This document shows positions 5,206 through 60,321 of a stretch of DNA of 64,000 nt, piece after piece; positions within the stretch are counted from its first letter, which is position 1; each line of letters starts with the position of its first letter. The DNA comes from a virus, in the IMG/VR virus record IMGVR_UViG_3300045988_080038, positions 1 through 64,000 of that record; one strand, written 5' to 3'. The notes below the pieces were generated by a model. That model worked only from the letters and a program-made list of their open reading frames with translations. It ran no database searches and had not been told where the DNA came from. The translations under genes and the position numbers were made by a program.

Positions 5206-5955
5206 TCAAAACGGAAACAAATTCAAATCAACTTCCAGTCCAGCTCGTCCAATCTGAACCAGAACATTATCCCCAACAACTTCTTTGACTTCTTTAAGCA
5301 TTTTTTCAGCATCCGAGGCATCACCACTCAAATGTACCAGTGTTATCGTTTTGAGCGATTCTGTGAGATTTTCCTTAATGAATTGCTTGCAAGTTGACAA
5401 AGAACAATGCCCGGTGATCTGGTGTTTCCACTTCGGGTTGTTTCTGTCTATCAGTTCCTCGCAGTAATTACAACCAATAACCAAGTGATTAAGCTCCATT
5501 AATTTGAATTTGTACCGGCAATGCTCAAAATCTGTCAGGTAAAGAAGCTTTCCCATTTCCTCATGTTCCACTAGATACCCGAAGTTCGGGCACAGTTCTT
5601 TATTTGCAGATGTATGCGGCAGGCTAAACGGAACTGCGCTGAACGAGCCGATTTTGAAGTATTTCTTTTCAGCAACAGCTTTTATAGTTCCGTCCGTTAT
5701 GCCTAAGTTTTTGATTGTTTCTTGCCCGGTATAGACCGTGATTCCGGCGTTCATGATTTCATGAATAGCTTCGGTGTGATCACCTTAACCATGTTCATGT
5801 GAAAGAAGCACACCGGAAATATTGATTATCTGGTAGTCAATCCCTCTGAGGATTTTCTTATACTTGCATCCGCAGTCAAGAAGAACAATCTCGCCTGTGC
5901 TTGACTGCAAAGCGTAACAATTTCCTTTCGTACTTCCTGTTGAGATTACTCGCAT
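5206..5955 (-). pseudogene. MBL-fold metallo-hydrolase interrupted by an in-frame TAA
   Basis: The reading frame from ATG 5955 gives ...ISGVLLSHEHG-TAA-GDHTEAIHEIMNAG... and runs in frame into the tracked ORF 5206-5754. The stop (5785-5787) lies inside the HxHxDH metal-binding motif. Confidence 0.75.
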
Positions 5956-6005
5956 GAACAAATGGTATCACCTCTTTTCTTTCCATAAAATTAATACCTA
6001 TTATT

Positions 6006-6395
6006 TTATAATCCCGATACATTTAAAGCTGAGGTAATTTCTTTGATGCTATCTCTTATTTTTCGCGGAAGAACGTAGTCTCCATTTTCATTTTTTAAAT
6101 CCATTACATTCGGAAGATTTTCTCTAAGAAGTTTTAATTCGTATCTTCCCAAGAAAGTCGATTCCAATTTTGTTTTTCCTTCTTTTGGAAGAATGAATAT
6201 TGGTTTGTTTGAAATATATGCATACATAACCATACTCATTGCCTCTTTCGCCTGTTCTTCTGTTGAGTAAACAGCCATAATTGTTCCTTTTTCACCGACC
6301 TTTGGAATGTATGCTCTTATGATATTTTCAGCTCTGCTTAATGAAGTGTTTTCGTAAGGAATGTCAATATTTCCTGTCTGACTAATTAATCTCAT
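6006..6395 (-). CDS. hypothetical protein, translationally coupled to the RT
   Basis: 129-aa ORF with a 4-nt overlap on the RT stop. Confidence 0.6.
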   Translation of the reverse strand: MRLISQTGNIDIPYENTSLSRAENIIRAYIPKVGEKGTIMAVYSTEEQAKEAMSMVMYAYISNKPIFILPKEGKTKLESTFLGRYELKLLRENLPNVMDLKNENGDYVLPRKIRDSIKEITSALNVSGL

Positions 6396-7456
6396 TTCAT
6401 TCTCCTTTCAATTTCCAAATCCATACTGTGGCATAATTTAATACAGTTTCCATGAAGCATATGGTTCCTACATGCTTCATATTTTTCGTTGAATTTTTCC
6501 ATTGGCATCTTTTCTTCGTTTACTGCACGAACCCATCTACGAATCTTTTCCTGAGTATTTCTTTTTCTGTCACCACGTAATTTTCTGATATATTTTCCCT
6601 CATCAGTCACGTAATGGTGGAATCCAAGATAACACAGTCCCATTCGAAACGGTACAATTTGCGATTTTGGGTTCAATTCCAACCCGAGACTTTTAACCAT
6701 CATTCGAATTGCTTCAAGAATTTCTCTGGCGATGTCTTTTGTTTTGCACAACACATAAAAATCATCGTTATATCGTCCATAATATGGATTTCCAAACTCA
6801 ATCGTTATCATCTGATCTAGCGAATGAAGTAGTAGCAATGCATATTTCAGGTTGACCTGGTTCCCTAATGGCAGCCCTGGATTTTCTGTGCTATCAATAA
6901 ATAAATGATTCAGCCAGATTGTAAAATTATCATCAAAATAGTAGTCAAGCACGTCTTTCATTATTTCATGATCTATGCTGTAAAAGTATTTATGAATATC
7001 ACATTTTACAATCCAGCCATTAATTCCATTCTTTTCATAGAAATCCAACATTTGCTCCTTTAAACCGTCCATTGCCATATGTTGTCCTTTTCCCTGTTGT
7101 CCAGCGGTATTCCATTTAATCAGAATTTTTTCAAGCTTCGGTGTCAGAATGTAATCAGAAAAGCATCTCTGTACTACTTTATCCTTAAATGCACATGATT
7201 CTATCGTTCGCTCTTTTGGCTCATGGATTTGAAATTTATTATATGGATTTATGGTATACGTTTGGTTTTCCAACTGTTCCTTTAGAAGGTGAATACCTTC
7301 AAGAGATAAATTAGAAAACCTTGCAGTGCCTGAGTTAAATTTTTTACCGCTTTTAACCTTCTTGTAAGAACGATATAAATTCTCAAAATTTGCAACAATA
7401 TCTTTATCCATTGTTTTTGTCCCTTTATATTTATCCATTCCGGAAAGGTTATGCAT
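6392..7456 (-). CDS. DGR reverse transcriptase
   Basis: RT domain with HEPKERTI, DKVVQ, GLPLGN and the catalytic box YGRYNDDFYVL. Lies immediately downstream of a template repeat. Confidence 0.9.
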   Translation of the reverse strand: MHNLSGMDKYKGTKTMDKDIVANFENLYRSYKKVKSGKKFNSGTARFSNLSLEGIHLLKEQLENQTYTINPYNKFQIHEPKERTIESCAFKDKVVQRCFSDYILTPKLEKILIKWNTAGQQGKGQHMAMDGLKEQMLDFYEKNGINGWIVKCDIHKYFYSIDHEIMKDVLDYYFDDNFTIWLNHLFIDSTENPGLPLGNQVNLKYALLLLHSLDQMITIEFGNPYYGRYNDDFYVLCKTKDIAREILEAIRMMVKSLGLELNPKSQIVPFRMGLCYLGFHHYVTDEGKYIRKLRGDRKRNTQEKIRRWVRAVNEEKMPMEKFNEKYEACRNHMLHGNCIKLCHSMDLEIERRMK

Positions 7457-7515
7457 TTACTTGTATCTTTACTGATTTCAGCTTTGCGCTTACTCTGTCT
7501 GCCTGTGATCCAGGT

Positions 7516-7584
7516 TGGGCGAACACCGTTACTGTTGTTGTAGTTATTGCTGTTGATATTGCCGGAAGGCGAAACAACGGTATT
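7516..7584 (-). repeat. DGR template repeat (TR)
   Basis: 69 nt that align without gaps to 8024-8092 and 8627-8695. Asn-codon rich on the minus strand (translates TVVSPSGNINSNNYNNSNGVRP). Non-coding position between avd and the RT. Confidence 0.85.
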
Positions 7585-7604
7585 GCAACGCATAACCCAA
7601 GTTG

Positions 7605-7976
7605 TTACCTGTTTCTGTCTTTTGTTCTCCATGAAATAGTCATGTACTTTATATCTTTGACCATTTGTGACCATGACTCCATTCCACCGGAGTTGATAAT
7701 TCCTAATTCATATGAAAGTTCTATAAAGTACATCAACTCATCACAATGAGTAATGGCTTTCGTTTGAAGCTCTAATCGTTCTCTTTTATAATCTTTCAGA
7801 TCAGTTCGGTTGGCTTCAAAAAGCAACTCGTAGATTTCTAATGCTTTATTTTGCATTTTATCTACAAGTGAAAATCTGTATTTCTTCGGGTATCGTCTGG
7901 CATTACTCGTAACTATTAATGTATGCTTTGCAAGCTGCTTAGCCTTTGCTATTACCTTTAAATCTTCCTTTGCCAT
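7605..7976 (-). CDS. DGR accessory variability determinant (Avd-like four-helix-bundle protein)
   Basis: 123-aa basic helical protein, YPKKYRFSLVDKMQNKALEIYELLFEAN...W.TKD, positioned between the target genes and TR-RT. Confidence 0.8.
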   Translation of the reverse strand: MAKEDLKVIAKAKQLAKHTLIVTSNARRYPKKYRFSLVDKMQNKALEIYELLFEANRTDLKDYKRERLELQTKAITHCDELMYFIELSYELGIINSGGMESWSQMVKDIKYMTISWRTKDRNR

Positions 7977-8575
7977 TAATCATCACTTCCCAATTCAAAG
8001 ATTGAAGAAGAAAAGATACAAACTGGGCGAACACCGATACTGTCGACGTAGCCATGGCCGTAGATAACGCCGGAAGGCGAAACAACGGTAAGCGTTGAAT
8101 TGTAATCATTTACTGGTGTACTCCATGGCGTAATCAACCACCACCATTTCGGCATGTTCGGCAGTAATTTACGATATTTCCGGTACTCATCCACAGTCAA
8201 GAGTGAAATCTTATCTTCGCAATGTCCGTATTCTGTCTGCCCGTCCAGAGAAAGTAAATCACGATCAAATCCGATGACTGCATCCTCTCCTAATTCGTCC
8301 GCAATCTTTTTCAAGAATTTAGTGTTTAATTCTTCTCGAAGTTTACTTGAAATCCAGTTATTTGAATCCGAATCAAATGTTCTTTCTTTTCCATCGAATC
8401 CATTCAAAACGGCAAAATATCCTTTTTCTGTCTTGTCCAAAATCATCCATTCCATTCCGGCGATTTCTACCGTTTTACCAATTTTCGGTTTTTCCATATG
8501 CTGCTTTTTATATTCGGCAAATTCTTTGTTGATCCGGTTTAATTCATTTTCAAAATATTTCAGATTTTTCTTCAT
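7976..8575 (-). CDS. DGR target protein 1 (C-type-lectin/FGE-like variable C-terminus)
   Basis: C-terminus WWWLITPWS...TVVSPSGVIYGHGYVDSIGVRPVCIF carries VR1. Confidence 0.85.
   Translation of the reverse strand: MKKNLKYFENELNRINKEFAEYKKQHMEKPKIGKTVEIAGMEWMILDKTEKGYFAVLNGFDGKERTFDSDSNNWISSKLREELNTKFLKKIADELGEDAVIGFDRDLLSLDGQTEYGHCEDKISLLTVDEYRKYRKLLPNMPKWWWLITPWSTPVNDYNSTLTVVSPSGVIYGHGYVDSIGVRPVCIFSSSIFELGSDD
8024..8092 (-). repeat. DGR variable repeat VR1
   Basis: 13 mismatches to TR, all at positions where TR has A on the coding strand. Confidence 0.85.
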
Positions 8576-8578
8576 TTT

Positions 8579-9196
8579 TCATCCCTCCACTTTAGATACA
8601 AAGAGATTAGATTTTAAGATACAAACTGGGCGAACACCGTAACTGTAGTTGCAGCTAATGCAGTCGACGCAGCCAGAAGGCGAAACAACGGTAAGAGCAT
8701 ATCTCCATCCTCTTTCCTCTGTGCTCCATGCGGAGCAAGTCCAATAGCAATCATCCAATTCATCATTTGGCGTCAGTTCTGTGTATTTACGCGCTTCATC
8801 AAACGTCAGTGGTCTAACTTTGCATTCCGTTTCTCCGATTTTCTGTCCATCCACGGTAATCAGATCTGATATGTCAGTTTCGATATTCTCTTCTCCAAAC
8901 TCTTCTTCAAAATCTTTCAGAATTTCAGTATCACAGAGTTTCTTCAAGGATGATTTGCTATAGTCAGTTGTATCATCATCAAATTTCACATTCTCTTTCA
9001 CGAATCCGAGTGAAATGATCTTGGTATGCTCTGTGTACTGTTCCAAGACCTTGTATTTTCGCTTTCCGGTAGTCTGGAAGATATCTCCCGGATTAAGCTC
9101 GGATAATCTCACCCTGCATGATTTTTCCTGTTTTTCCAGAAGTTCAACCAGTTCCTTTGCTTTCTTTAAAATTTCACTATTGCTCATTTTTAGCAC
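8579..9196 (-). CDS. DGR target protein 2 (paralog of target 1)
   Basis: C-terminus YWTCSAWS...TVVSPSGCVDCISCNYSYGVRPVCIL carries VR2. Confidence 0.85.
   Translation of the reverse strand: MLKMSNSEILKKAKELVELLEKQEKSCRVRLSELNPGDIFQTTGKRKYKVLEQYTEHTKIISLGFVKENVKFDDDTTDYSKSSLKKLCDTEILKDFEEEFGEENIETDISDLITVDGQKIGETECKVRPLTFDEARKYTELTPNDELDDCYWTCSAWSTEERGWRYALTVVSPSGCVDCISCNYSYGVRPVCILKSNLFVSKVEG
8627..8695 (-). repeat. DGR variable repeat VR2
   Basis: 14 mismatches to TR: 12 at TR adenines and 2 elsewhere (plus-strand a->g at 8669 and g->a at 8675). Confidence 0.8.
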
Positions 9197-9200
9197 CTCC

Positions 9201-9362
9201 TTATTTTGCTGTAAGTGAAACCATTAAGTCGAAGAAGTTTGAAATTACCAGCGCAACCAGCATCGGTAAAGTGTTTTTCTTCTTAATGGCGTATACTGCA
9301 AGTGCAACGAAGACGATATAAGCAATCACGCATAATACTGTAAATACATCATGTAAACTCAT
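9201..9362 (-). CDS. 53-aa membrane peptide
   Basis: MSLHDVFTVLCVIAYIVFVALAVYAIKKKNTLPMLVALVISNFF... has two hydrophobic helices. Weak RBS. Confidence 0.35.
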   Translation of the reverse strand: MSLHDVFTVLCVIAYIVFVALAVYAIKKKNTLPMLVALVISNFFDLMVSLTAK

Positions 9363-9811
9363 ATCACATTTCCTGCTACTAAAAACATATACAAATGTAT
9401 ATGCTAGATGATTCGCTACAATCTCACAATTTGTAGTTACTGCTTCATCGTGTATGCTTTGGTGGTCGCAAGTGACACACTACTCACAAGTTCTTGTACA
9501 CTCCACAGTCGTAAATTCCCGACTAAGCCATCGGTACATACCTATAAATTCTTTTTTTATTGATTAGATATAGGTTCATCTAAATAGCTTTTCCTTTCTA
9601 AAATTTTGTTTTTTTGCCATTTGGTTTTCATGGACTTCTACCATTACTCAATCATTACCATCAAGGTTCTACCCTATAGTTAGCAAGACTGTTTCAACTT
9701 GCACTGGCTTTTCTTTCCTATGATTTCAGTGGTTTTAAGTTACCAACTAATACTATGGATTTTAAGTATCTTTGAGTATATTTACTCACGTTTGATAATA
9801 TATTTAATTGC

Positions 9812-10687
9812 TTAAATTTCCTCCTGCTTCATAAAATCTGGAATCTCTGGTTCTTTACCTGCTGCCGGGACCGGTTCTTTCTCTACCGCCTGGACAGTTT
9901 CTGCGACCGTTGGCTGCTTCGGCTGCTCTTCGATTGGCATTGGCTCTGGGATGAATTCTTCGGTGTTGGCGTGTGCTTCGATATCGGCTTTAACTTCGTC
10001 CTCCACATTGGTTTCAATTTCAACCCCGGAATAAAATGTTGTCTGTTGTGTTGGATTCTCAAAATCAAGTTCAATGTGCTTACAAAGTCTATGGAGAACT
10101 GTTTTTTTATACATCTCCCCTGTAAACTTTTTCCATGCTGGGCTGTTAGAGGCTTTACTTGCGCTTCTCGTGTTTTCAAGGTCCGAGAGGGTCATTGTTT
10201 CGTAAGACATTCCGCCATCTTTGTAGAGGACTACCGCAAACGCTCCAATGATTTTTCCATCATTAAATGCTTTTGGTTTGAAAGTGAATGTCTGTTCTCC
10301 ATCTTCAATAGTTTCCTCAAAAAAATCACCTTCACGTACCAATTTTGCATAGATATCTGTGATTGGGCGGATAGAGTATTTCTTCGCAAGCTTCTTTGCA
10401 CCTCGATAATCAGTCTGATAGTTAAGCTGATTTCCGTAAGGAACTAAATAGCATTCTTTGGAATAAAAATCCAATCCCAAATAAGCGCCCTTCATCAGCC
10501 CCGCCATAAGCTGTGACTGGCTGTACTTCTGCAACTGCGGATTATCATTGATAAGTGCAAGTGCGTTCTGTACAAACCTCGATCTATTAAAGTCTTTTGG
10601 AAGTGCTTCTGCTACTGAATCCAGTTTACCTGTCAGCGCTACGCTGAATGACTGTTTCTGTGCTGCTACCTGTGTGTTTTCTGCCAT
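9812..10687 (-). CDS. recT: RecT-family single-strand annealing recombinase
   Basis: GAYLGLDFYSKECYLVPYGNQLNYQTDYRGAKKLA core is typical of RecT. Acidic C-terminal tail. Confidence 0.8.
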   Translation of the reverse strand: MAENTQVAAQKQSFSVALTGKLDSVAEALPKDFNRSRFVQNALALINDNPQLQKYSQSQLMAGLMKGAYLGLDFYSKECYLVPYGNQLNYQTDYRGAKKLAKKYSIRPITDIYAKLVREGDFFEETIEDGEQTFTFKPKAFNDGKIIGAFAVVLYKDGGMSYETMTLSDLENTRSASKASNSPAWKKFTGEMYKKTVLHRLCKHIELDFENPTQQTTFYSGVEIETNVEDEVKADIEAHANTEEFIPEPMPIEEQPKQPTVAETVQAVEKEPVPAAGKEPEIPDFMKQEEI

Positions 10688-21561: not shown

Positions 21562-23010
21562 TCACTTAGTATTTGCTTTCATGTGCTCAATCACTCTCTT
21601 CCAGGTATCAATGCCGCAAGTTCCATTTGCCTTTACACCGACATTTTTCTGGAAAACTTTGAGGGAATCATATGTGTCATTCCCAAACTGTCCGTCAACT
21701 TCCACTCCCAGCATCGCCTGAAGCATTGCCACAGCTGTACCGGAACTGCCCTTTCTCAGAATCGGAAGTCTTGTCTGGAAGGTACCGGTAAGCGTAGTTG
21801 AAGATGTACTTACTTTTGCACCGGTGGTAACAGCAATAGCCACGTGGTGATTATCGTTCAGGAGGATATCTCCTGCCTTTAAATAGTCACCAGATGTCAG
21901 ATACTTACTATCCGTCAGTACTTTCGCACCAGCAGCCTTCATTGCGGCTCTCATGTTCCGTGTCGTCAGATAGATACTGACTGCCTTGAGTTTTGCGTTA
22001 TTTAAGCGATACCCAGCCCCCTTGACGATAGCTGCTGTGCTCGCACTGCAATCGGATTCACAAGCTACCGTGATCTGCGCCGGATCGTAGTTGCTCGCCT
22101 TCAGATGCTGCCAGAATGAATACCGGTCATTGCTGTTTCCGGCTGTGCCCTGATCGTACCCGATGAGATTGTTCTGGGCTGCTTTTGTCGCCATATCTGC
22201 GATCATGGCTGCGATTTTGGCGTCATTGAATCTCAGGACACAGAGCCACGGCCTACTGTACCAGTTCATGATCCGATATTCTGTCCCAGTCTGATCTCCT
22301 GCTCTCCCCCCTGCATACCTTCCGTTTTCATCATGCCCACAGTTGCTAATTTTTACCATTTTTGTTTCTCCTTTCTGCGTCGTTCCTCTATAGTCCTTGT
22401 AGAACACATCCATATCGACATTTCCGCTGATGCCGGATACTTTTCCTTTGCTGGAATACTGCCAGCCAATTCCTGCTTTTGGCTTTACCCTTGTTTGTAT
22501 TGTTCCATTATCGGGATCTGGGTAATGTGCAATCCAGCACTCATACTTTCTGAGTGCATCAGTCAAAACGTTATTATACCAGTCCGTGTTGCAGTAGATG
22601 CCGACCTTATAACCAGCTTTCTTCATTCTAGTCAGAAATGCGACTGCAATGTTTTCGACTGCCTGCTTACCGAGTTTTCGCTGATTAGACCACTCGAGAT
22701 CATAGAACACCGGGAAGTCCAGTCCTCGCCCGTTCAGTGCGGCAATCACATCCTCCGCTTCGTCAATAGCCTGTGCCGGTGTCAGAGCGTATGAATACTT
22801 ATACCCACCGATAAGGATTCCGTTGTTCTTGCACCCCTTGTAGTTGTACTCGAATGAGCTGTCAACGCCGGACCTCTGGTGTACTCTCAATATTGCGAAT
22901 TTGATGCCGGATTTAGCTACTTTCGACCAGTCCGGTTTTCCTTGATTGGATGATACGTCAATACCTTTAATTTCCAATTTATCAGCTCCTTTCATAATTT
23001 CATGAAACAT
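21562..23010 (-). CDS. endolysin: GH25 muramidase + NlpC/P60-like domain + PG_binding_1
   Basis: N-terminus IKGIDVSSNQGKPDWSKV...FAILRV is GH25-like. Middle region has DCSAST...GDILLNDNHHVAI. C-terminus has GSSGTAVAMLQAMLGVEVDGQFGNDTYDSLKVFQ. Confidence 0.85.
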   Translation of the reverse strand: MFHEIMKGADKLEIKGIDVSSNQGKPDWSKVAKSGIKFAILRVHQRSGVDSSFEYNYKGCKNNGILIGGYKYSYALTPAQAIDEAEDVIAALNGRGLDFPVFYDLEWSNQRKLGKQAVENIAVAFLTRMKKAGYKVGIYCNTDWYNNVLTDALRKYECWIAHYPDPDNGTIQTRVKPKAGIGWQYSSKGKVSGISGNVDMDVFYKDYRGTTQKGETKMVKISNCGHDENGRYAGGRAGDQTGTEYRIMNWYSRPWLCVLRFNDAKIAAMIADMATKAAQNNLIGYDQGTAGNSNDRYSFWQHLKASNYDPAQITVACESDCSASTAAIVKGAGYRLNNAKLKAVSIYLTTRNMRAAMKAAGAKVLTDSKYLTSGDYLKAGDILLNDNHHVAIAVTTGAKVSTSSTTLTGTFQTRLPILRKGSSGTAVAMLQAMLGVEVDGQFGNDTYDSLKVFQKNVGVKANGTCGIDTWKRVIEHMKANTK

Positions 23011-23989
23011 ATTTGTGGTGGCTGTAGCGTACAGATTCCTGCGCTACTTTTGCGTAAATCATAGTCGTGTCAAGTTTTTCATGTCCGAGCATCTTCTGCA
23101 AGTCAGTGACATTCATCCCCCGTTCGAGCGCCATGCTCGCTGTTGTGTGCCTTATCAGATGTGGGTATAAGTGTCTGCCGATGCCGGAACGTTCGCCAAT
23201 TTGTCGGACTATCTGCTCAATTTGCGTCTTCGTAATGCCCCGATATGGCTGACGGACGGTGGATATCACGCTGTCGGAATCACCTTTCCGACTGAGCCAG
23301 TATTTCTTCAGAGCAACTTCGGCTCTGGCGTTGATATACGATATCCGGTGCTTACTACCTTTTCCGAATAGGTGGACTTCCTTGGTCCGAAAGTCAATGT
23401 CAGCTTTCTTCAGAATCACCATTTCAGAGACACGGCATCCGGTGCTGTAGAACAGTTCCACAAGGGCTTTTTCCCGATAATCCTTGCAAGCATCCCGAAC
23501 TAATTCCAGTTCGATATCAGACAACGGCTCACGTGGTTTGGCTTCAAACTTAATCGGATTTATTCGGCTACAAACATTTTTGGTCAGATACTCTTCCTTG
23601 ACGCACCAGTCCAGAAACGTATGAATAATAAGACGTTTTCCGTCAATCGTCCGGTTGGTGTTGCCTTTTGCCGACAGCCCGAACAGGTACACACGGATAT
23701 CGTTGGTGGTTATCTGGTTCAGCGGCTTATTGACCGTCTGAAAGAAGTCGTCAAGGTTGCACTTGTACGTCCTCAGTGACTGTGGGGACATGCCCTCAAT
23801 CTTTTTCGATACCAGATACACTTTGTAGCACTCCGGCACGCAGTCTTGATATGGCACGATTTCCGTGATTTTCTTCTCAATGTCGAAGTTTGCCGAGAAC
23901 ATTTCCAGTTCCATCAGCACGGTTTTCATCTGCTCCGGCGTCAGCTTTCCGTCCAGTTTGGTCATAAATTCGGTTGCGAAATTTTCCAT
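23000..23989 (-). CDS. tyrosine recombinase / integrase
   Basis: C-terminal catalytic region HLIRHTTASMALERGMNVTDLQKMLGHEKLDTTMIYAKV. AAGGAGGG RBS before the ATG at 23989. The tracked ATG at 24028 lacks an RBS. Confidence 0.85.
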   Translation of the reverse strand: MENFATEFMTKLDGKLTPEQMKTVLMELEMFSANFDIEKKITEIVPYQDCVPECYKVYLVSKKIEGMSPQSLRTYKCNLDDFFQTVNKPLNQITTNDIRVYLFGLSAKGNTNRTIDGKRLIIHTFLDWCVKEEYLTKNVCSRINPIKFEAKPREPLSDIELELVRDACKDYREKALVELFYSTGCRVSEMVILKKADIDFRTKEVHLFGKGSKHRISYINARAEVALKKYWLSRKGDSDSVISTVRQPYRGITKTQIEQIVRQIGERSGIGRHLYPHLIRHTTASMALERGMNVTDLQKMLGHEKLDTTMIYAKVAQESVRYSHHKYVS

Positions 23990-24213
23990 GAAAAAAGCCC
24001 TCCTTTTGGGTACACAAAGGGAAGGCACTGTGATATAATATACCTGTACCCTTTGTGGTGCTGTTGGAGTCGAACTTTTTGATTGGTAGTCGGGAGTTCG
24101 GCTCCTTTTTTGCTATAATGTTTTGTCCGTATTATAACACTTAGCACATCACCGTGGTAGCTTTTTTATGAAATTTTCAAAGTTTCTTAATCAACTAAAT
24201 GGGAAGAGGAAAA

Positions 24214-31518: not shown

Positions 31519-32601
31519 TTAGTCAATGTATTCTTGGTTATCCCATTTCTGCTTTACCCGTTCACACAAGATTCTCTGATTCTCCTCAGCGAAGAACAGC
31601 CAGATATGACGGTCAAAGCTTTTTCCGTTTCGTTGGCCAAGGTCTGACTTGAAGAACTCATCTATCATGTCCTGATAGAACCGGAGCTCATCCTTTTCTT
31701 CCACGTCCGCTTTCAGAAGCGGTGAATCATCGCCAATGATAACACCCATGAACTGATCTGCGTATTCGGCAGAAATCATTATATGCTGTTCACCCATGTG
31801 TTCCCGGTACTGCTTGAAGTAATAAGCGATAACTGCCATGGTCAGACAAATGTCATGATCTTCCAGAATGTTCTCCTGTTCACCATACAGCGAATTAAAC
31901 TTATTGTACAAAATCTGTGGTACATCTTCGTACCGGTATTTCTCAGAACGATTTTTCTGTTTTTGCTTGCGGTACACTTCCTTCTGCTCAGTTGTCCGTG
32001 AGGGTATATTATTTATATCTAGTATGTTAATATTATTAGGAGCAGAAGTCTTTGAACCTTTACCATTCTTTGGTAAAGTCTTTTTCTCTTTATTTGATAA
32101 AATAAAGTCTTTATCTGTATTCTTTTCTTCTGTTATACTTATTCCCTTGTTATACTTATACATGCAGATTTCCTCACCACGGGAGGTGCATTTTTTCTCA
32201 CCGTCCCCCATGTGTTTTTTCTCACCATGTTCAGAAGATTGTTTTATCTCATGTTCATTGATAAATTCTTCGTAAAATTTTTCTGTCAAAACAAGATGCC
32301 TACAATGAATAACTTTTGGGTTTTCTTTTTCGTATTCGTACCATGCTTCTACATATCCCTCTGTTTTTAATCCATTTAGCATTGACTGAACGGTACGTTC
32401 TGATACACCAATGAAATCCGCAAAATGCCGATTGCTTGCAAAACAATCTCCGCTTTTATCTTTCTTGCGAAGACTATATATTTCCACTAATAAAAATTTT
32501 TCTCTAGGGCTGAATTTGTTTGTAAGATATAATCGTGACGGTATAAAAACGCCAGTAAAATCTCGTTCTCTTTTTTCGGAAATAGACTGTTCTTTTCTCA
32601 T
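31519..32601 (-). CDS. wHTH protein, replication-organizer-like
   Basis: N-terminus FIPSRLYLTNKFSPREKFLLVEIYSL...NRHFADFIGVSERTVQSMLNGLKTEGYV, followed by a Lys-rich linker. Confidence 0.5.
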   Translation of the reverse strand: MRKEQSISEKRERDFTGVFIPSRLYLTNKFSPREKFLLVEIYSLRKKDKSGDCFASNRHFADFIGVSERTVQSMLNGLKTEGYVEAWYEYEKENPKVIHCRHLVLTEKFYEEFINEHEIKQSSEHGEKKHMGDGEKKCTSRGEEICMYKYNKGISITEEKNTDKDFILSNKEKKTLPKNGKGSKTSAPNNINILDINNIPSRTTEQKEVYRKQKQKNRSEKYRYEDVPQILYNKFNSLYGEQENILEDHDICLTMAVIAYYFKQYREHMGEQHIMISAEYADQFMGVIIGDDSPLLKADVEEKDELRFYQDMIDEFFKSDLGQRNGKSFDRHIWLFFAEENQRILCERVKQKWDNQEYID

Positions 32602-32735
32602 AATAGATAACCTCCTTGTTGGTCGTCGGCATCTCCATAATATGCCAGAATCCTTGATTTATAAAAACAGTAGGCAGGTGCATCAAGGTTTACACTTTTC
32701 GGCGGCCAACCTAGCCTACTGAATTTAACTAAATA

Positions 32736-33101
32736 TTAAATACCGTACTTTTCTTTATTGTATTTTTCTCTATCCATGTCGGATTTTATTCTTACCCATT
32801 TATCAATTTCTACCATTGTTTCACACAAATTTTTCATCATGTTTATTCCAAACATAGGGATGCTCCCGCATTCTGAGACGATTTTAAAATCAAGACTTGC
32901 AATTCCTTTATTGTTTTTATCAGGATTAAATCCAGTTAACAAAAAGTGATATCGGCTATGTAACTTCGAAGGTAATAAAATTAAATTATTAATATCATTG
33001 TTGCTTCTGTCAAAGTCAATATGGTGGATTACATAGCTACTGTCGAAATCAATCCCATAATAGTCTTTGTAATATTTACGGTAATTAAAAGATTTTGCCA
33101 T
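32736..33101 (-). CDS. HNH endonuclease
   Basis: VIHHIDFDRSNNDINNLILLPSKLHSRYH. Confidence 0.7.
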   Translation of the reverse strand: MAKSFNYRKYYKDYYGIDFDSSYVIHHIDFDRSNNDINNLILLPSKLHSRYHFLLTGFNPDKNNKGIASLDFKIVSECGSIPMFGINMMKNLCETMVEIDKWVRIKSDMDREKYNKEKYGI

Positions 33102-33215
33102 AGAAAAATACCTGCCTTTCGTATAAAAGATGCCTTGAATGTATGTAAATCAACAGGCAGGCGGCAAGGCATTTCCGCTTGTCCCCCGTCGGGTAAGCCT
33201 GTTGGTTTTACCGTA

Positions 33216-59330: not shown

Positions 59331-59401
59331 TCGGAATGGCAGGAATCGAACCTGCGACACATGACTTGTAAGTCACTGCTCTACCGCTGAGCTACATTCC
59401 G
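59331..59401 (-). tRNA. tRNA-Val(UAC)-like with a 16-nt anticodon arm (possible pseudo or atypical tRNA)
   Basis: CGGAATG/CATTCCG acceptor, GCTC/GAGC D stem and GCAGG-TTCGATT-CCTGC T arm are all canonical. The anticodon arm GTGAC-TTACAA-GTCAT has only 6 loop nt. Confidence 0.6.
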
Positions 59402-59589
59402 TGCCGCTTACCACGGCTGATCACCTCGGTAAATGAATGAGATGATTTCCATTTTGCACAACATATAAATGATATGCTTTTCGTACTGCCCAGCAGTCCT
59501 CAGGATAAACATCAACCTTTTCCCATGGGTTTAATCCGCTTGAACCATAGGCCGCCCGTGCACTGACAGCATAGAACGAACGAATTAAT

Positions 59590-59661
59590 TTGCAGGAGAC
59601 GGATTCGAACCGCCGTTCTCAAGGATATGAGCCTTGTGAGATTCCACTTCTCCATCCTGCC
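59590..59661 (-). tRNA. tRNA with anticodon CAU (Met or Ile2)
   Basis: Anticodon arm CAAGG-CTCATAT-CCTTG, T arm GGCGG-TTCGAAT-CCGTC, D stem GAGA/TCTC. G1:A72 is unpaired. Confidence 0.75.
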
Positions 59662-59960
59662 TTAACCCGGATTGTACCGGGTTAGCAATAGGTTTATCGT
59701 GTTATGCTTTCCACTAGACTGTTTTCATCCGTGCCAGTCCCACGGAGTTGTTTCGGAGGATTATTCCTGAAATGCCTCTTGAAAACTCCCTGTCGTCAAC
59801 GTGCACTCATTGGCGACATATTCAACTCAGAGGCAGTACCGAACGGGAAGTTGCTTTTTCAATCCGGCTACGCCGTTACGTACCTTCTGGAAAACAACCC
59901 ACATACACACATTCGGCAGTTTTTTCTGCCCATTAAACGGATGGGCAGCTTTGGGAGAAA

Positions 59961-60034
59961 TGGAAGCTCTGGGGCTCGAACCCAGGACCGACCGGTTATG
60001 AGCCGGTTACTCTAACCAACTGAGCTAAGCTTCC
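59961..60034 (-). tRNA. tRNA with anticodon CAU (Ile2/lysidine-type or Met)
   Basis: Fully canonical cloverleaf: GGAAGCT acceptor, ACCGG-CTCATAA-CCGGT, CTGGG-TTCGAGC-CCCAG. Confidence 0.85.
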
Positions 60035-60249
60035 TGAGTAGCAAAAAGATACAGGGTCGCTGCGATATCTGTCTTTTTACTACTGTTGCAGTTCTTGACC
60101 GCCAGCTGCAACAAAGGTTGAAACCACCCGGAACATTTGACTGTTCCTTTAGTCATCGCCGTTGCGATAGGTGGTTAAAGGGTATTTCATGAAAAAAGGA
60201 AAAAGAAAATCCAATCTGCATCAAAGGGAAGATGAAGCCCGATGCAGAG

Positions 60250-60321
60250 CGGCGCATGTGGGATTCGAACCCACGCATGCCGGAGTCAAAGTCCGGTGCG
60301 TTACCGCTTCGCCAATGCGCT
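60250..60321 (-). tRNA. tRNA-Gln (UUG)
   Basis: CCGGA-CTTTGAC-TCCGG anticodon arm, AAGCGGTAA D loop, GTGGG-TTCGAAT-CCCAC T arm. A1:C72 is unpaired. Confidence 0.8.

What the first reader, a model, noticed from the sequence alone, without database searches (positions are those of the whole stretch)
7976..9196. DGR targets are two tandem small paralogs in the early region, not a virion receptor-binding protein
In the classical phage examples I know of, the DGR diversifies a tail-fibre tip. Here the targets are two adjacent 199-aa and 205-aa paralogs. Neither has a signal peptide or TM helix that I can see. Both have a helical N-terminus followed by a W-rich lectin-like C-terminus. They lie inside the early/recombination operon, between RecT and the RT, and about 15 kb from the nearest tail gene. 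This suggests the diversified proteins may act inside the cell or be non-structural. VR2 also carries two non-adenine differences from TR (8669 and 8675), so target 2 may be drifting or refractory to homing while target 1 remains pristine.
Basis: inference. Interest (0 to 1): 0.7.

Follow-up and report, generated by a model that had tools for sequence, protein, structure and literature searches.

The report
Phage hypermutation cassette among early genes
A gut phage carries a working diversity-generating retroelement that keeps rewriting the binding tip of two small, neighbouring lectin-like proteins encoded among its DNA-replication genes rather than its tail genes, so these proteins may not be the usual host-recognition parts of the virus particle, although that has not been shown.

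Summary
On the minus strand lie target 2 (9187-8579), target 1 (8575-7976), Avd, a 67-nt template repeat (TR) and the reverse transcriptase. VR1 differs from TR at 11 positions, all TR adenines. VR2 differs at 10 adenines plus 8669 and 8675.

Both targets are paralogous stand-alone DUF6273 proteins: an N-terminal helix plus a lectin-like domain, with the variable region in a C-terminal hairpin. Neither has a hydrophobic segment. The cassette sits in the SSB/SbcC-like/RecT operon, 15.5 kb from the nearest tail gene.

One reading fails. Target 2 is not refractory, because VR2 is as hypervariable as VR1 across about 75 relatives. Its two non-adenine differences fall on the only two sites where TR alleles differ among relatives.

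The "non-structural" reading gains support but is unproven. Small DUF6273 genes sit beside replication and recombination genes in 58 diverse prophage loci and several named phages. Large multidomain DUF6273 proteins sit by tail genes. Lack of a signal peptide does not argue against a virion protein.

Small DUF6273 DGR targets were already published (2023-2024) and presumed to be receptor-binding proteins. I rate this a new variant of a known kind, of moderate interest.

The parts
8579..9187 (-). Target 2: stand-alone DUF6273 protein, 202 aa from the ATG at 9187 (the ORF extends to a GTG at 9196, giving 205 aa)
   Evidence: Pfam DUF6273 25.2 bits against a cutoff of 23.5; phrog_9958 E 9e-23. 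AF2 pLDDT 96.7. RBS and start codon read.
8627..8693 (-). VR2, encoding residues 173-183 of target 2
   Evidence: 10 TR-A mismatches plus 2 non-A. Entropy about 3 bits per residue across 72 distinct relatives.
8616..8626 (-). 3' flank of VR2 (GTTTGTATCTT), identical in VR1 and different in TR. Candidate initiation-of-mutagenic-homing (IMH) element.
   Evidence: Sequence comparison. Function is inferred.
7976..8575 (-). Target 1: stand-alone DUF6273 protein, 199 aa. Its stop overlaps the Avd start (TAATG).
   Evidence: Pfam DUF6273 24.1 bits; phrog_9958 E 3e-48. AF2 pLDDT 94.9.
8024..8090 (-). VR1, encoding residues 170-180 of target 1 (a beta-hairpin in the model)
   Evidence: 11 mismatches, all at TR-A. 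Entropy up to 3.3 bits across 118 database variants and 78 loci.
8013..8023 (-). 3' flank of VR1 (GTTTGTATCTT), candidate IMH
7605..7976 (-). Avd accessory protein
   Evidence: phrog_3206 'Avd protein of DGR' E 1.4e-24. Pfam 23S_rRNA_IVP and bAvd hits are below their cutoffs.
7516..7582 (-). Template repeat (TR), 20 adenines, 19 of them in codon positions 1-2 (AAY-rich: N-I-N-S-N-N-Y-N-N-S-N)
7505..7515 (-). 3' flank of TR (ACCTGGATCAC), the IMH*-like counterpart that differs from the VR flanks
6392..7456 (-). DGR reverse transcriptase, 354 aa
   Evidence: Pfam RVT_1 E 3e-12; phrog_1423 E 1.6e-83.
9201..9362 (-). 53-aa hydrophobic (two-TM-like) ORF packed directly upstream of target 2. An accessory gene found only in a subset of relatives, so probably not part of the system.

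Best explanation
This is a classical diversity-generating retroelement. The RT, helped by Avd, copies the TR RNA into cDNA and misreads adenines. That cDNA then replaces the VR at the 3' end of each of two tandem target genes.

Both targets are ancient paralogs of the stand-alone DUF6273 family. Each has a roughly 22-residue amphipathic N-terminal helix with a heptad pattern, which may be an oligomerisation 'neck'. This is followed by a C-type-lectin-like domain, and 11 residues of its C-terminal beta-hairpin are re-randomised. Both targets are rewritten actively in the phage population.

This protein family characteristically sits in the replication/recombination (early) module of temperate Clostridia phages. 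It persists there even when the DGR is lost. My committed reading is therefore that these are early-module, cytoplasmically made, soluble ligand-binding accessory proteins rather than parts of the tail. Their specificity is kept variable to follow a variable partner, such as a host or rival-phage factor.

Shown: the DGR anatomy, adenine-specific diversification of both VRs, the fold family, and the conserved genomic placement.

Inferred: early expression, oligomerisation, absence from the virion, and the nature of the ligand.
For: DGR parts and adenine bias.

Both VRs are hypervariable.
- Target 1: 118 database variants vary almost only at residues 170-180, up to 3.3 bits.
- IMG/VR relatives: entropy at TR-A sites is 1.49 bits (VR1) against 1.51 bits (VR2), and mean pairwise differences are 11.7 against 11.8.
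- 78 and 72 distinct proteins show the same entropy profile.
- VRs follow their cognate TR allele at the two polymorphic non-A sites in relatives. Non-A mismatches are rare and occur in both VRs.

Fold.
- pLDDT is 94.9 and 96.7.
- The best solved match is the DUF6273 N-terminal domain of the T. ramosa IgA protease (E 8e-7 and 9e-5).
- The models also match phage DUF6273 models.

Heptad a/d hydrophobic residues are conserved in the N-terminal helix.

Placement.
- The T2-T1 tandem lies between recombination genes and the hydrolase in all 80 close relatives. Of these, 22 lack the RT.
- Among 58 diverse loci, about 20 have DUF-DUF-Avd-RT and about 35 have a lone DUF6273 gene.
- Their neighbours are helicases, Holliday-junction resolvases, primases, replication initiators, methyltransferases, repressors and RecT. 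No capsid, portal or tape-measure family is among the top 25.
- Brigit, Toutatis, Lelie and nd4 show the same placement.
- By contrast, the 608-aa DUF6273 protein of Moorella phage MCACPph1 lies next to a tail-fibre gene.
Against: - No expression, localisation or proteomic data exist.
- Every experimentally characterised phage DGR target is a virion receptor-binding protein (established knowledge: BPP-1 Mtd).
- DUF6273 domains occur in clearly extracellular proteins: the secreted IgA protease (PMC12402451), tentaclins, and tail-fibre fusions (PMC10743442, PMC11792537).
- In other phages one TR serves both a tentaclin and a small DUF6273 target, which suggests a shared kind of ligand.
- A short N-terminal helix plus a head domain is also how small siphophage receptor-binding proteins are built (own knowledge: TP901-1 BppL).
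- The early and late operons are co-directional, so read-through expression late in infection is possible.
- The neighbour annotation shows only the 25 commonest families per side, so rare structural neighbours could be hidden.
Confidence: 0.5

Rival explanations
1. The two proteins are virion-attached or lysis-released adhesins or receptor-binding proteins (Mtd-like in function). They dock by their N-terminal helix onto a tail or capsid protein, and their position among early genes is incidental.
For: - The published view of small DUF6273 targets is that they are receptor-binding proteins (PMC10743442; bioRxiv 10.1101/2024.10.15.618418).
- The domain family occurs in proteins annotated as RBP or tail-collar fibre, and in tentaclins.
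- The variable region sits on a hairpin, as in tentaclins (PMC10743442).
- The 'helix + head' architecture is compatible with small trimeric receptor-binding proteins and with collectin neck-plus-CRD units. Those were the next, weak, fold matches.
Against: - Family-wide placement is in replication/recombination modules, not tail modules.
- There is no beta-prism or beta-sandwich docking domain.
- The phage already has a 1449-aa host-range-type tail protein and a 668-aa fibre-like protein.
Confidence: 0.35
2. The cassette sits next to RecT/SSB because the DGR machinery needs the phage's single-strand annealing functions to install cDNA, by analogy with retron recombineering (own knowledge). On this reading the location says nothing about where the targets act.
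For: In the window and in L124 the cassette directly adjoins RecT, the SbcC-like ATPase and SSB.
Against: - Small DUF6273 genes occupy early modules even where no RT lies within 6 kb (about 35 of 58 loci; Brigit).
- In Toutatisvirus the RT lies 17.5 kb away, beside the other target (bioRxiv 10.1101/2024.10.15.618418).
- Relatives that lost the RT keep the targets in place.
Confidence: 0.08
3. Target 2 is decaying, or cannot be homed into, while target 1 stays active.
For: There are two non-adenine differences in VR2 and none in VR1.
Against: - VR2 diversity equals VR1 diversity.
- The 3' flank is identical to that of VR1.
- Both changes are synonymous.
- They fall on the only two sites where TR alleles differ among relatives, and they match the allele of contig 074511.
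- Non-A mismatches to the cognate TR also occur in the VR1 of some relatives.
- The gene is intact and conserved in all relatives.
Confidence: 0.03

Closest known systems
Bordetella phage BPP-1 DGR (mtd-avd-TR-brt)
   Same: The gene order is the same: target, Avd, TR, RT. VR lies at the 3' end of the target. Substitutions are adenine-specific and the TR is rich in AAY codons. The VR and TR 3' flanks differ (the comparison with BPP-1 is from established knowledge).
   Different: There are two tandem targets instead of one. The targets are about 200 aa with only an N-terminal helix, and lack the beta-prism and beta-sandwich that dock Mtd on the tail fibre. The cassette lies in the recombination operon, 15.5 kb from the tail genes. 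Mtd was not retrieved by fold search.
Small DUF6273-only DGR targets of gut phages nd4/nd12 ('tgt2'; Baykov et al. 2023, PMC10743442)
   Same: A single DUF6273 C-lectin-like domain flanked by short helices, with VR at the C-terminus forming a beta-hairpin. nd4 tgt2 matches target 1 at about 33% identity and also lies beside replication genes.
   Different: There the second target of the same TR is a large Ig-domain 'tentaclin'. Here both targets are small paralogs and no tentaclin exists in the window. The authors propose an Mtd-like receptor-binding role and do not discuss genomic placement.
Toutatisvirus / phage Lelie two-target DGRs (PMC11792537; bioRxiv 10.1101/2024.10.15.618418)
   Same: A small DUF6273 target is a core gene in the early region. 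The targets are retained in phages that lack the DGR, as in 22 of 78 relatives here.
   Different: In those phages the RT, Avd and TR lie next to the Hoc-like target, 17.5 kb from the small one. Here the whole cassette is contiguous with the small targets.
Tentaclins / Hoc-like DGR targets (e.g. the Moorella phage MCACPph1 608-aa protein)
   Same: They share the DUF6273 domain that carries the VR.
   Different: They have several Ig-like domains and sit next to tail genes. Neither is the case here.
N-terminal DUF6273 domain of the Thomasclavelia ramosa IgA protease (PDB 9qa6; PMC12402451)
   Same: It is the best and only significant solved-structure match (E 8e-7 and 9e-5, TM about 0.6).
   Different: It is part of a secreted, cell-wall-anchored 137-kDa enzyme. 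It is not diversified, and the paper assigns the domain no role.
DGR-diversified C-lectin domains on cytoplasmic STAND-type proteins of multicellular cyanobacteria (own knowledge, not checked here)
   Same: They set a precedent for DGR targets that lack export signals and presumably bind ligands inside the cell.
   Different: They are cellular rather than phage-encoded, and are large multidomain proteins with NTPase or effector domains. The proteins here have no other domain.

Membership tests
Diversity-generating retroelement (DGR) | Reverse transcriptase gene next to the template repeat | tested here: met
   6392-7456(-): RVT_1 E 3e-12; phrog_1423 E 1.6e-83.
Diversity-generating retroelement (DGR) | TR/VR repeat pair whose differences are almost all at TR adenines | tested here: met
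   VR1 11 of 11 and VR2 10 of 12 at A; chance 1.7e-6 and 2e-4.
Diversity-generating retroelement (DGR) | VR at the 3' end of a protein-coding target, with adenines in codon positions 1-2 | tested here: met
   VR codons 170-180 of 199 and 173-183 of 202. 19 of 20 TR adenines are in positions 1-2.
Diversity-generating retroelement (DGR) | Accessory variability determinant (Avd) | tested here: met
   phrog_3206 E 1.4e-24. The Pfam bAvd and 23S_rRNA_IVP hits are below their cutoffs.
Diversity-generating retroelement (DGR) | Ongoing diversification at TR-adenine-encoded positions in natural populations | tested here: met
   for both VRs. This is across genomes, not within one sample.
Diversity-generating retroelement (DGR) | Functional IMH/IMH* elements that direct one-way homing | not testable with these tools
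   Only the sequence asymmetry of the 3' flanks is seen.
DUF6273 (PF19789) C-lectin-like DGR target family | Match to the Pfam model above its gathering score | tested here: met
   24.1 and 25.2 bits against a cutoff of 23.5. The margin is narrow, but it is backed by phrog_9958 (E 3e-48 and 9e-23) and by 1317 representative homologs.
DUF6273 (PF19789) C-lectin-like DGR target family | Fold like a solved or modelled DUF6273 domain | tested here: met
   9qa6 at E 8e-7 and 9e-5; BFVD DUF6273 models at E down to 1e-9.
DUF6273 (PF19789) C-lectin-like DGR target family | Canonical C-type-lectin fold (similarity to CTLDs, Mtd or TvpA) | tested here: inconclusive
Mtd-like virion receptor-binding protein | N-terminal beta-prism or beta-sandwich domains that dock the trimer on the tail fibre | tested here: not met
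   Only one helix precedes the lectin-like domain.
Mtd-like virion receptor-binding protein | Gene in or at the end of the tail module | tested here: not met
   15.5 kb from the nearest tail gene, inside the recombination operon.
Mtd-like virion receptor-binding protein | Presence in the virion and a role in adsorption | not testable with these tools
   Needs proteomics and genetics.
Tentaclin / Hoc-like decoration protein | Ig-like (Fn3/Big) domains attached to the DUF6273 domain | tested here: not met
   No such domain in Pfam or in the models. phrog_10993 matches only the VR-bearing segment.
Known anti-phage defence systems (PADLOC) | Match to a defence-system protein model | tested here: not met
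   No hit for either target or for the small neighbouring genes.

The most novel reading that the evidence does not exclude
A temperate phage uses a DGR to keep re-randomising the binding face of early-expressed, intracellular proteins. These could be a diversifiable inhibitor or decoy aimed at variable host defence proteins, or at rival phages (superinfection exclusion). That would be an adaptive counter-immunity device rather than a host-range device. The tandem, anciently retained paralogs might act as a hetero-oligomer.
Probability: 0.25. Interest if true: 0.85.

Novelty: new variant of a known kind. Interest (0 to 1): 0.45.

Why it matters
Phage DGRs are generally read as host-range devices that vary tail-fibre tips. 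A large share of viral DGR targets is simply labelled 'unknown' (PMC8144416).

This case and its relatives show something different. A widespread class of gut-phage DGR targets consists of small stand-alone lectin-like proteins, and these are consistently encoded among replication and recombination genes.

If they prove not to be virion parts, targeted hypermutation in phages would extend to a second kind of function, and the family would give a naturally diversified binder scaffold to study. If they are virion parts, they are an unusual example of structural genes kept in the early module. Both outcomes can be tested with an inducible Blautia or Lachnospiraceae lysogen.

Tried and rejected
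- Third VR: a scan allowing any base at TR adenines found none in the window.
- Promoter and terminator scan of 5700-10000: no more sites than in shuffled sequence, and nothing on the coding strand between RecT and target 2. It therefore gives no evidence for a separate transcription unit.
- The 53-aa membrane ORF upstream of target 2 as a partner: rejected, because it is present in only a subset of relatives.
- RAGATH-18 RNA upstream as a regulator of the cassette: rejected, because it is absent upstream of target 2 in most relatives and found elsewhere in one.
- PADLOC defence models: no hit for the targets.
- Plasmid collection: no homolog, so no evidence from non-phage elements.
- Domain fusions of longer homologs: mostly tandem DUF6273. 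There is one DUF4406 fusion and one sub-threshold TIM-barrel hit, too thin to use.
- Role of the DUF6273 domain in the solved IgA protease: the paper does not assign one.
- Whole-gene recombination as the source of VR2's alternative allele: not supported, because the non-VR part of target 2 is not closest to contig 074511.
- The search for related loci with the 65-sequence alignment failed for lack of a conserved stretch. An 11-sequence alignment was used instead.
- Literature searches for phage DGR targets with shown non-structural or anti-defence roles found none. The Roseburia phage Shimadzu paper is not in the library.
Full report
**1. What is in the sequence**

All the genes concerned lie on the minus strand. 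Reading 5' to 3', the order is:
- SSB (13342-12674)
- an SbcC-like ATPase (12708-10714)
- RecT (10687-9812)
- a 450-nt non-coding gap
- a 53-aa hydrophobic ORF (9362-9201)
- target 2 (9196/9187-8579)
- target 1 (8575-7976)
- Avd (7976-7605)
- the template repeat (7582-7516)
- the reverse transcriptase (7456-6392)
- a 129-aa ORF, a metal-dependent hydrolase, and further small early genes

Family assignments come from Pfam and PHROGs. Target 2 most likely starts at the ATG at 9187, behind an AGGAGG, giving 202 aa rather than 205. The stop codon of target 1 overlaps the Avd start.

The 67-nt TR has 20 adenines, 19 of them in codon positions 1-2. It encodes an Asn-rich stretch. VR1 differs from TR at 11 positions, all adenines. 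VR2 differs at 10 adenines plus 8675 (C>T) and 8669 (T>C), and both of those are synonymous. Chance would give such adenine bias with probability 1.7e-6 (VR1) and 2e-4 (VR2). No other VR exists in the window. Both VRs are followed by the same 11 nt (GTTTGTATCTT), whereas TR is followed by ACCTGGATCAC. That is the asymmetry expected of IMH/IMH* elements, although I have only sequence evidence for it.

**2. The proteins**

The two targets are paralogs: 39% identity over 137 aa, E 5e-24. Both pass the Pfam DUF6273 threshold narrowly and match phrog_9958 strongly. Neither has a hydrophobic segment or a signal-like N-terminus.

AlphaFold2 models built on 65 diverse homologs are confident (pLDDT 94.9 and 96.7). 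Each shows an N-terminal helix (residues 5-26 and 3-23), then an alpha/beta domain. The variable residues (170-180 and 173-183) form a C-terminal beta-hairpin.

Phage models annotated DUF6273 match well. Some are large proteins labelled receptor-binding or tail-collar fibre. The N-terminal helix keeps hydrophobic residues at heptad a/d positions across homologs. That fits either an oligomerisation neck or a docking helix.

**3. Is target 2 refractory? No.**

A pattern scan of IMG/VR found the same cassette in about 30 contigs.
- At TR-adenine sites VR1 and VR2 are equally diverse: 1.49 against 1.51 bits, and 11.7 against 11.8 mean pairwise differences.
- Across 80 further relatives, 78 distinct target-1 and 72 distinct target-2 proteins show the same entropy peak of about 3 bits per residue, confined to the VR.
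- 118 database variants of target 1 vary almost only at residues 170-180.

The TR itself has four alleles among relatives. They differ at exactly the two sites where the window's VR2 departs from its TR. In relatives whose TR is intact, both VRs carry the allele of their own TR at these two sites, apart from one exception at one site (VR2 in L005), so homing resets non-adenine positions too.

The window's VR2 carries the 'T,C' allele. Contig 074511 has this allele in its TR, and its VR2 is among the most similar to the window's (differences at four TR-adenine positions). The simplest reading is that VR2 was last written from a T,C-type template, either ancestral or supplied by a relative. It has not been rewritten since. 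Whole-gene recombination is not supported. Occasional non-adenine mismatches occur in the VR1 of relatives as well.

**4. Where the cassette sits**

The window is most of an ~80-kb temperate phage from a human gut metagenome. A close homolog of target 1 is annotated in Blautia.

The late genes are:
- terminase at 55.4-53.7 kb
- portal at 53.1-51.6 kb
- a fibre-like protein at 44.5-42.5 kb
- tape measure at 38.4-33.6 kb
- a 1449-aa host-range-type tail protein at 29.0-24.7 kb
- integrase and endolysin at 24.0-21.6 kb

An anti-repressor and HTH regulators lie at 16-17.6 kb, ahead of the early operon.

**5. Is the placement an accident? No.**

In all 80 close relatives the T2-T1 tandem lies between the recombination genes and the hydrolase, even though the RecT allele varies. 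Of 78 informative relatives, 22 have lost the RT (10 of them Avd as well) yet keep both targets.

A scan of one genome per species found 58 loci at 28-63% identity, in Lachnospiraceae, Oscillospiraceae, Ruminococcus and even Treponema.
- About 20 carry the same 'DUF6273-DUF6273-Avd-RT' cassette.
- In the Lachnospiraceae subset, the upstream copy is closer to target 2 and the downstream copy closer to target 1. The duplication is therefore old and both copies are retained.
- About 35 have a lone DUF6273 gene with no RT within 6 kb.

The 202 nearest neighbouring ORFs were scanned against PHROGs. They match DNA helicases, Holliday-junction resolvases, primase, replication initiators, methyltransferases, ParB, repressors and RecT. 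No capsid, portal, tape-measure or baseplate family appears among the 25 commonest on either side. Only the commonest families are listed, so this is not a complete census.

Named phages agree.
- In FP_Brigit the homolog follows the cro-side regulators and precedes the exonuclease and RecT.
- In FP_Toutatis and Lelie it lies among early genes.
- In nd4 it precedes replication genes.
- By contrast, the 608-aa multidomain DUF6273 protein of Moorella phage MCACPph1 lies next to a tail-fibre gene.

**6. What it most likely is**

The DGR mechanism itself is standard and well supported. What remains open is where the two binders act.

Two facts favour an early, non-virion accessory role: the consistent early-module placement, and persistence without the DGR. 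By analogy, the corresponding region of lambda holds ral, sieB, kil and gam (established knowledge).

Several points argue the other way.
- Every characterised phage DGR target is a virion protein.
- DUF6273 is found in extracellular proteins.
- Elsewhere the small target shares its TR with a surface tentaclin.
- A helix-plus-head design also suits small receptor-binding proteins.

The lack of a signal peptide does not discriminate, because virion proteins lack one too. I put the non-virion reading at about 0.5 and the adhesin reading at about 0.35.

A third idea is that the cassette sits by RecT because cDNA installation needs annealing proteins. It is weakened by the many DGR-less DUF6273 genes in the same position.

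**7. Relation to what is known**

Small DUF6273-only DGR targets have been described in three sources:
- nd4/nd12 (PMC10743442)
- Faecalibacterium phages Lelie and CP11 (PMC11792537)
- Toutatisviruses, where the gene was noted as a core gene 17.5 kb from the TR and as retained without the DGR (bioRxiv 10.1101/2024.10.15.618418)

All three presume a receptor-binding role, and none discusses the module in which the gene sits. Roux et al. class many viral DGR targets simply as 'unknown' (PMC8144416).

Three things differ here. Both targets are small tandem paralogs with no tentaclin. The whole cassette is embedded in the recombination operon. This architecture recurs in about 20 divergent lineages. 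I rate it a new variant of a known kind. It is of moderate interest because it turns a vague 'unknown target' class into a testable question.

Noticed in passing
window 9373-9805 (RAGATH-18 at 9437-9509, minus strand): The gap between RecT and the cassette is a conserved non-coding element of about 430 nt. It contains a RAGATH-18 RNA (73.4 bits) and is 81% identical to an intergenic stretch of the unrelated Butyrivibrio virus Ceridwen. In relatives it travels with one RecT allele or sits elsewhere, so it behaves like a mobile RNA element.
   Followed up: partly
window 31519-33204: Two int-alpA RNA matches (32652-32721 and 33133-33204, minus strand) flank a 121-aa ORF. They lie beside a replication-initiator-like gene (31519-32601) in the middle of the tail module, between the tape measure and the large tail protein. 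This could be an inserted element.
   Followed up: no
L027 (TR at about 7450 on the minus strand), L021 1131-1194, L037 267-330: In three relatives the sequence at the TR position (with TR-type flanks) is itself adenine-depleted. In L027 it is identical to that phage's VR1. Either a mutagenised copy has overwritten the template, which would disable further diversification, or these are assembly chimeras.
   Followed up: partly
L043, L048, L049, L052, L060, L061, L064, L066, L072, L079, L080, L085, L088, L092, L093, L095, L103, L104, L105, L111, L114, L116: 22 of 78 informative close relatives lack the RT, and 10 of them also lack Avd. All keep both target genes intact in the same place.
   Followed up: partly
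window 9201-9362 (minus strand): A 53-aa strongly hydrophobic two-helix ORF is packed against the start of target 2. It is present in only some relatives.
   Followed up: partly
window 8627-8693; L035 5379-5442; L030 (minus strand, 997): Three VR2 variants share a Cys-x-x-Cys-x-x-Cys-Asn pattern and the same TR allele. This suggests common descent with later changes at adenine sites, or selection for a cysteine-rich tip.
   Followed up: no
window 59331-60321 (minus strand): A cluster of four tRNA genes (two Met, one Gln, and one with an irregular anticodon loop) lies several kb upstream (in the direction of transcription) of the packaging genes.
   Followed up: no
window 21562-24028 (minus strand): A tyrosine-type integrase (24028-23000) lies between the tail genes and the endolysin (23010-21562), and its end overlaps the endolysin start by 11 nt. 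This is an unusual position for an integrase.
   Followed up: no
protein P0245 (289 aa; representative homolog): One homolog is a fusion of DUF4406 with DUF6273, the only non-DUF6273 fusion partner that passed a Pfam threshold. DUF4406 is, from memory and unchecked, a nucleoside deoxyribosyltransferase-like domain. The fusion may be a gene-calling artefact.
   Followed up: no
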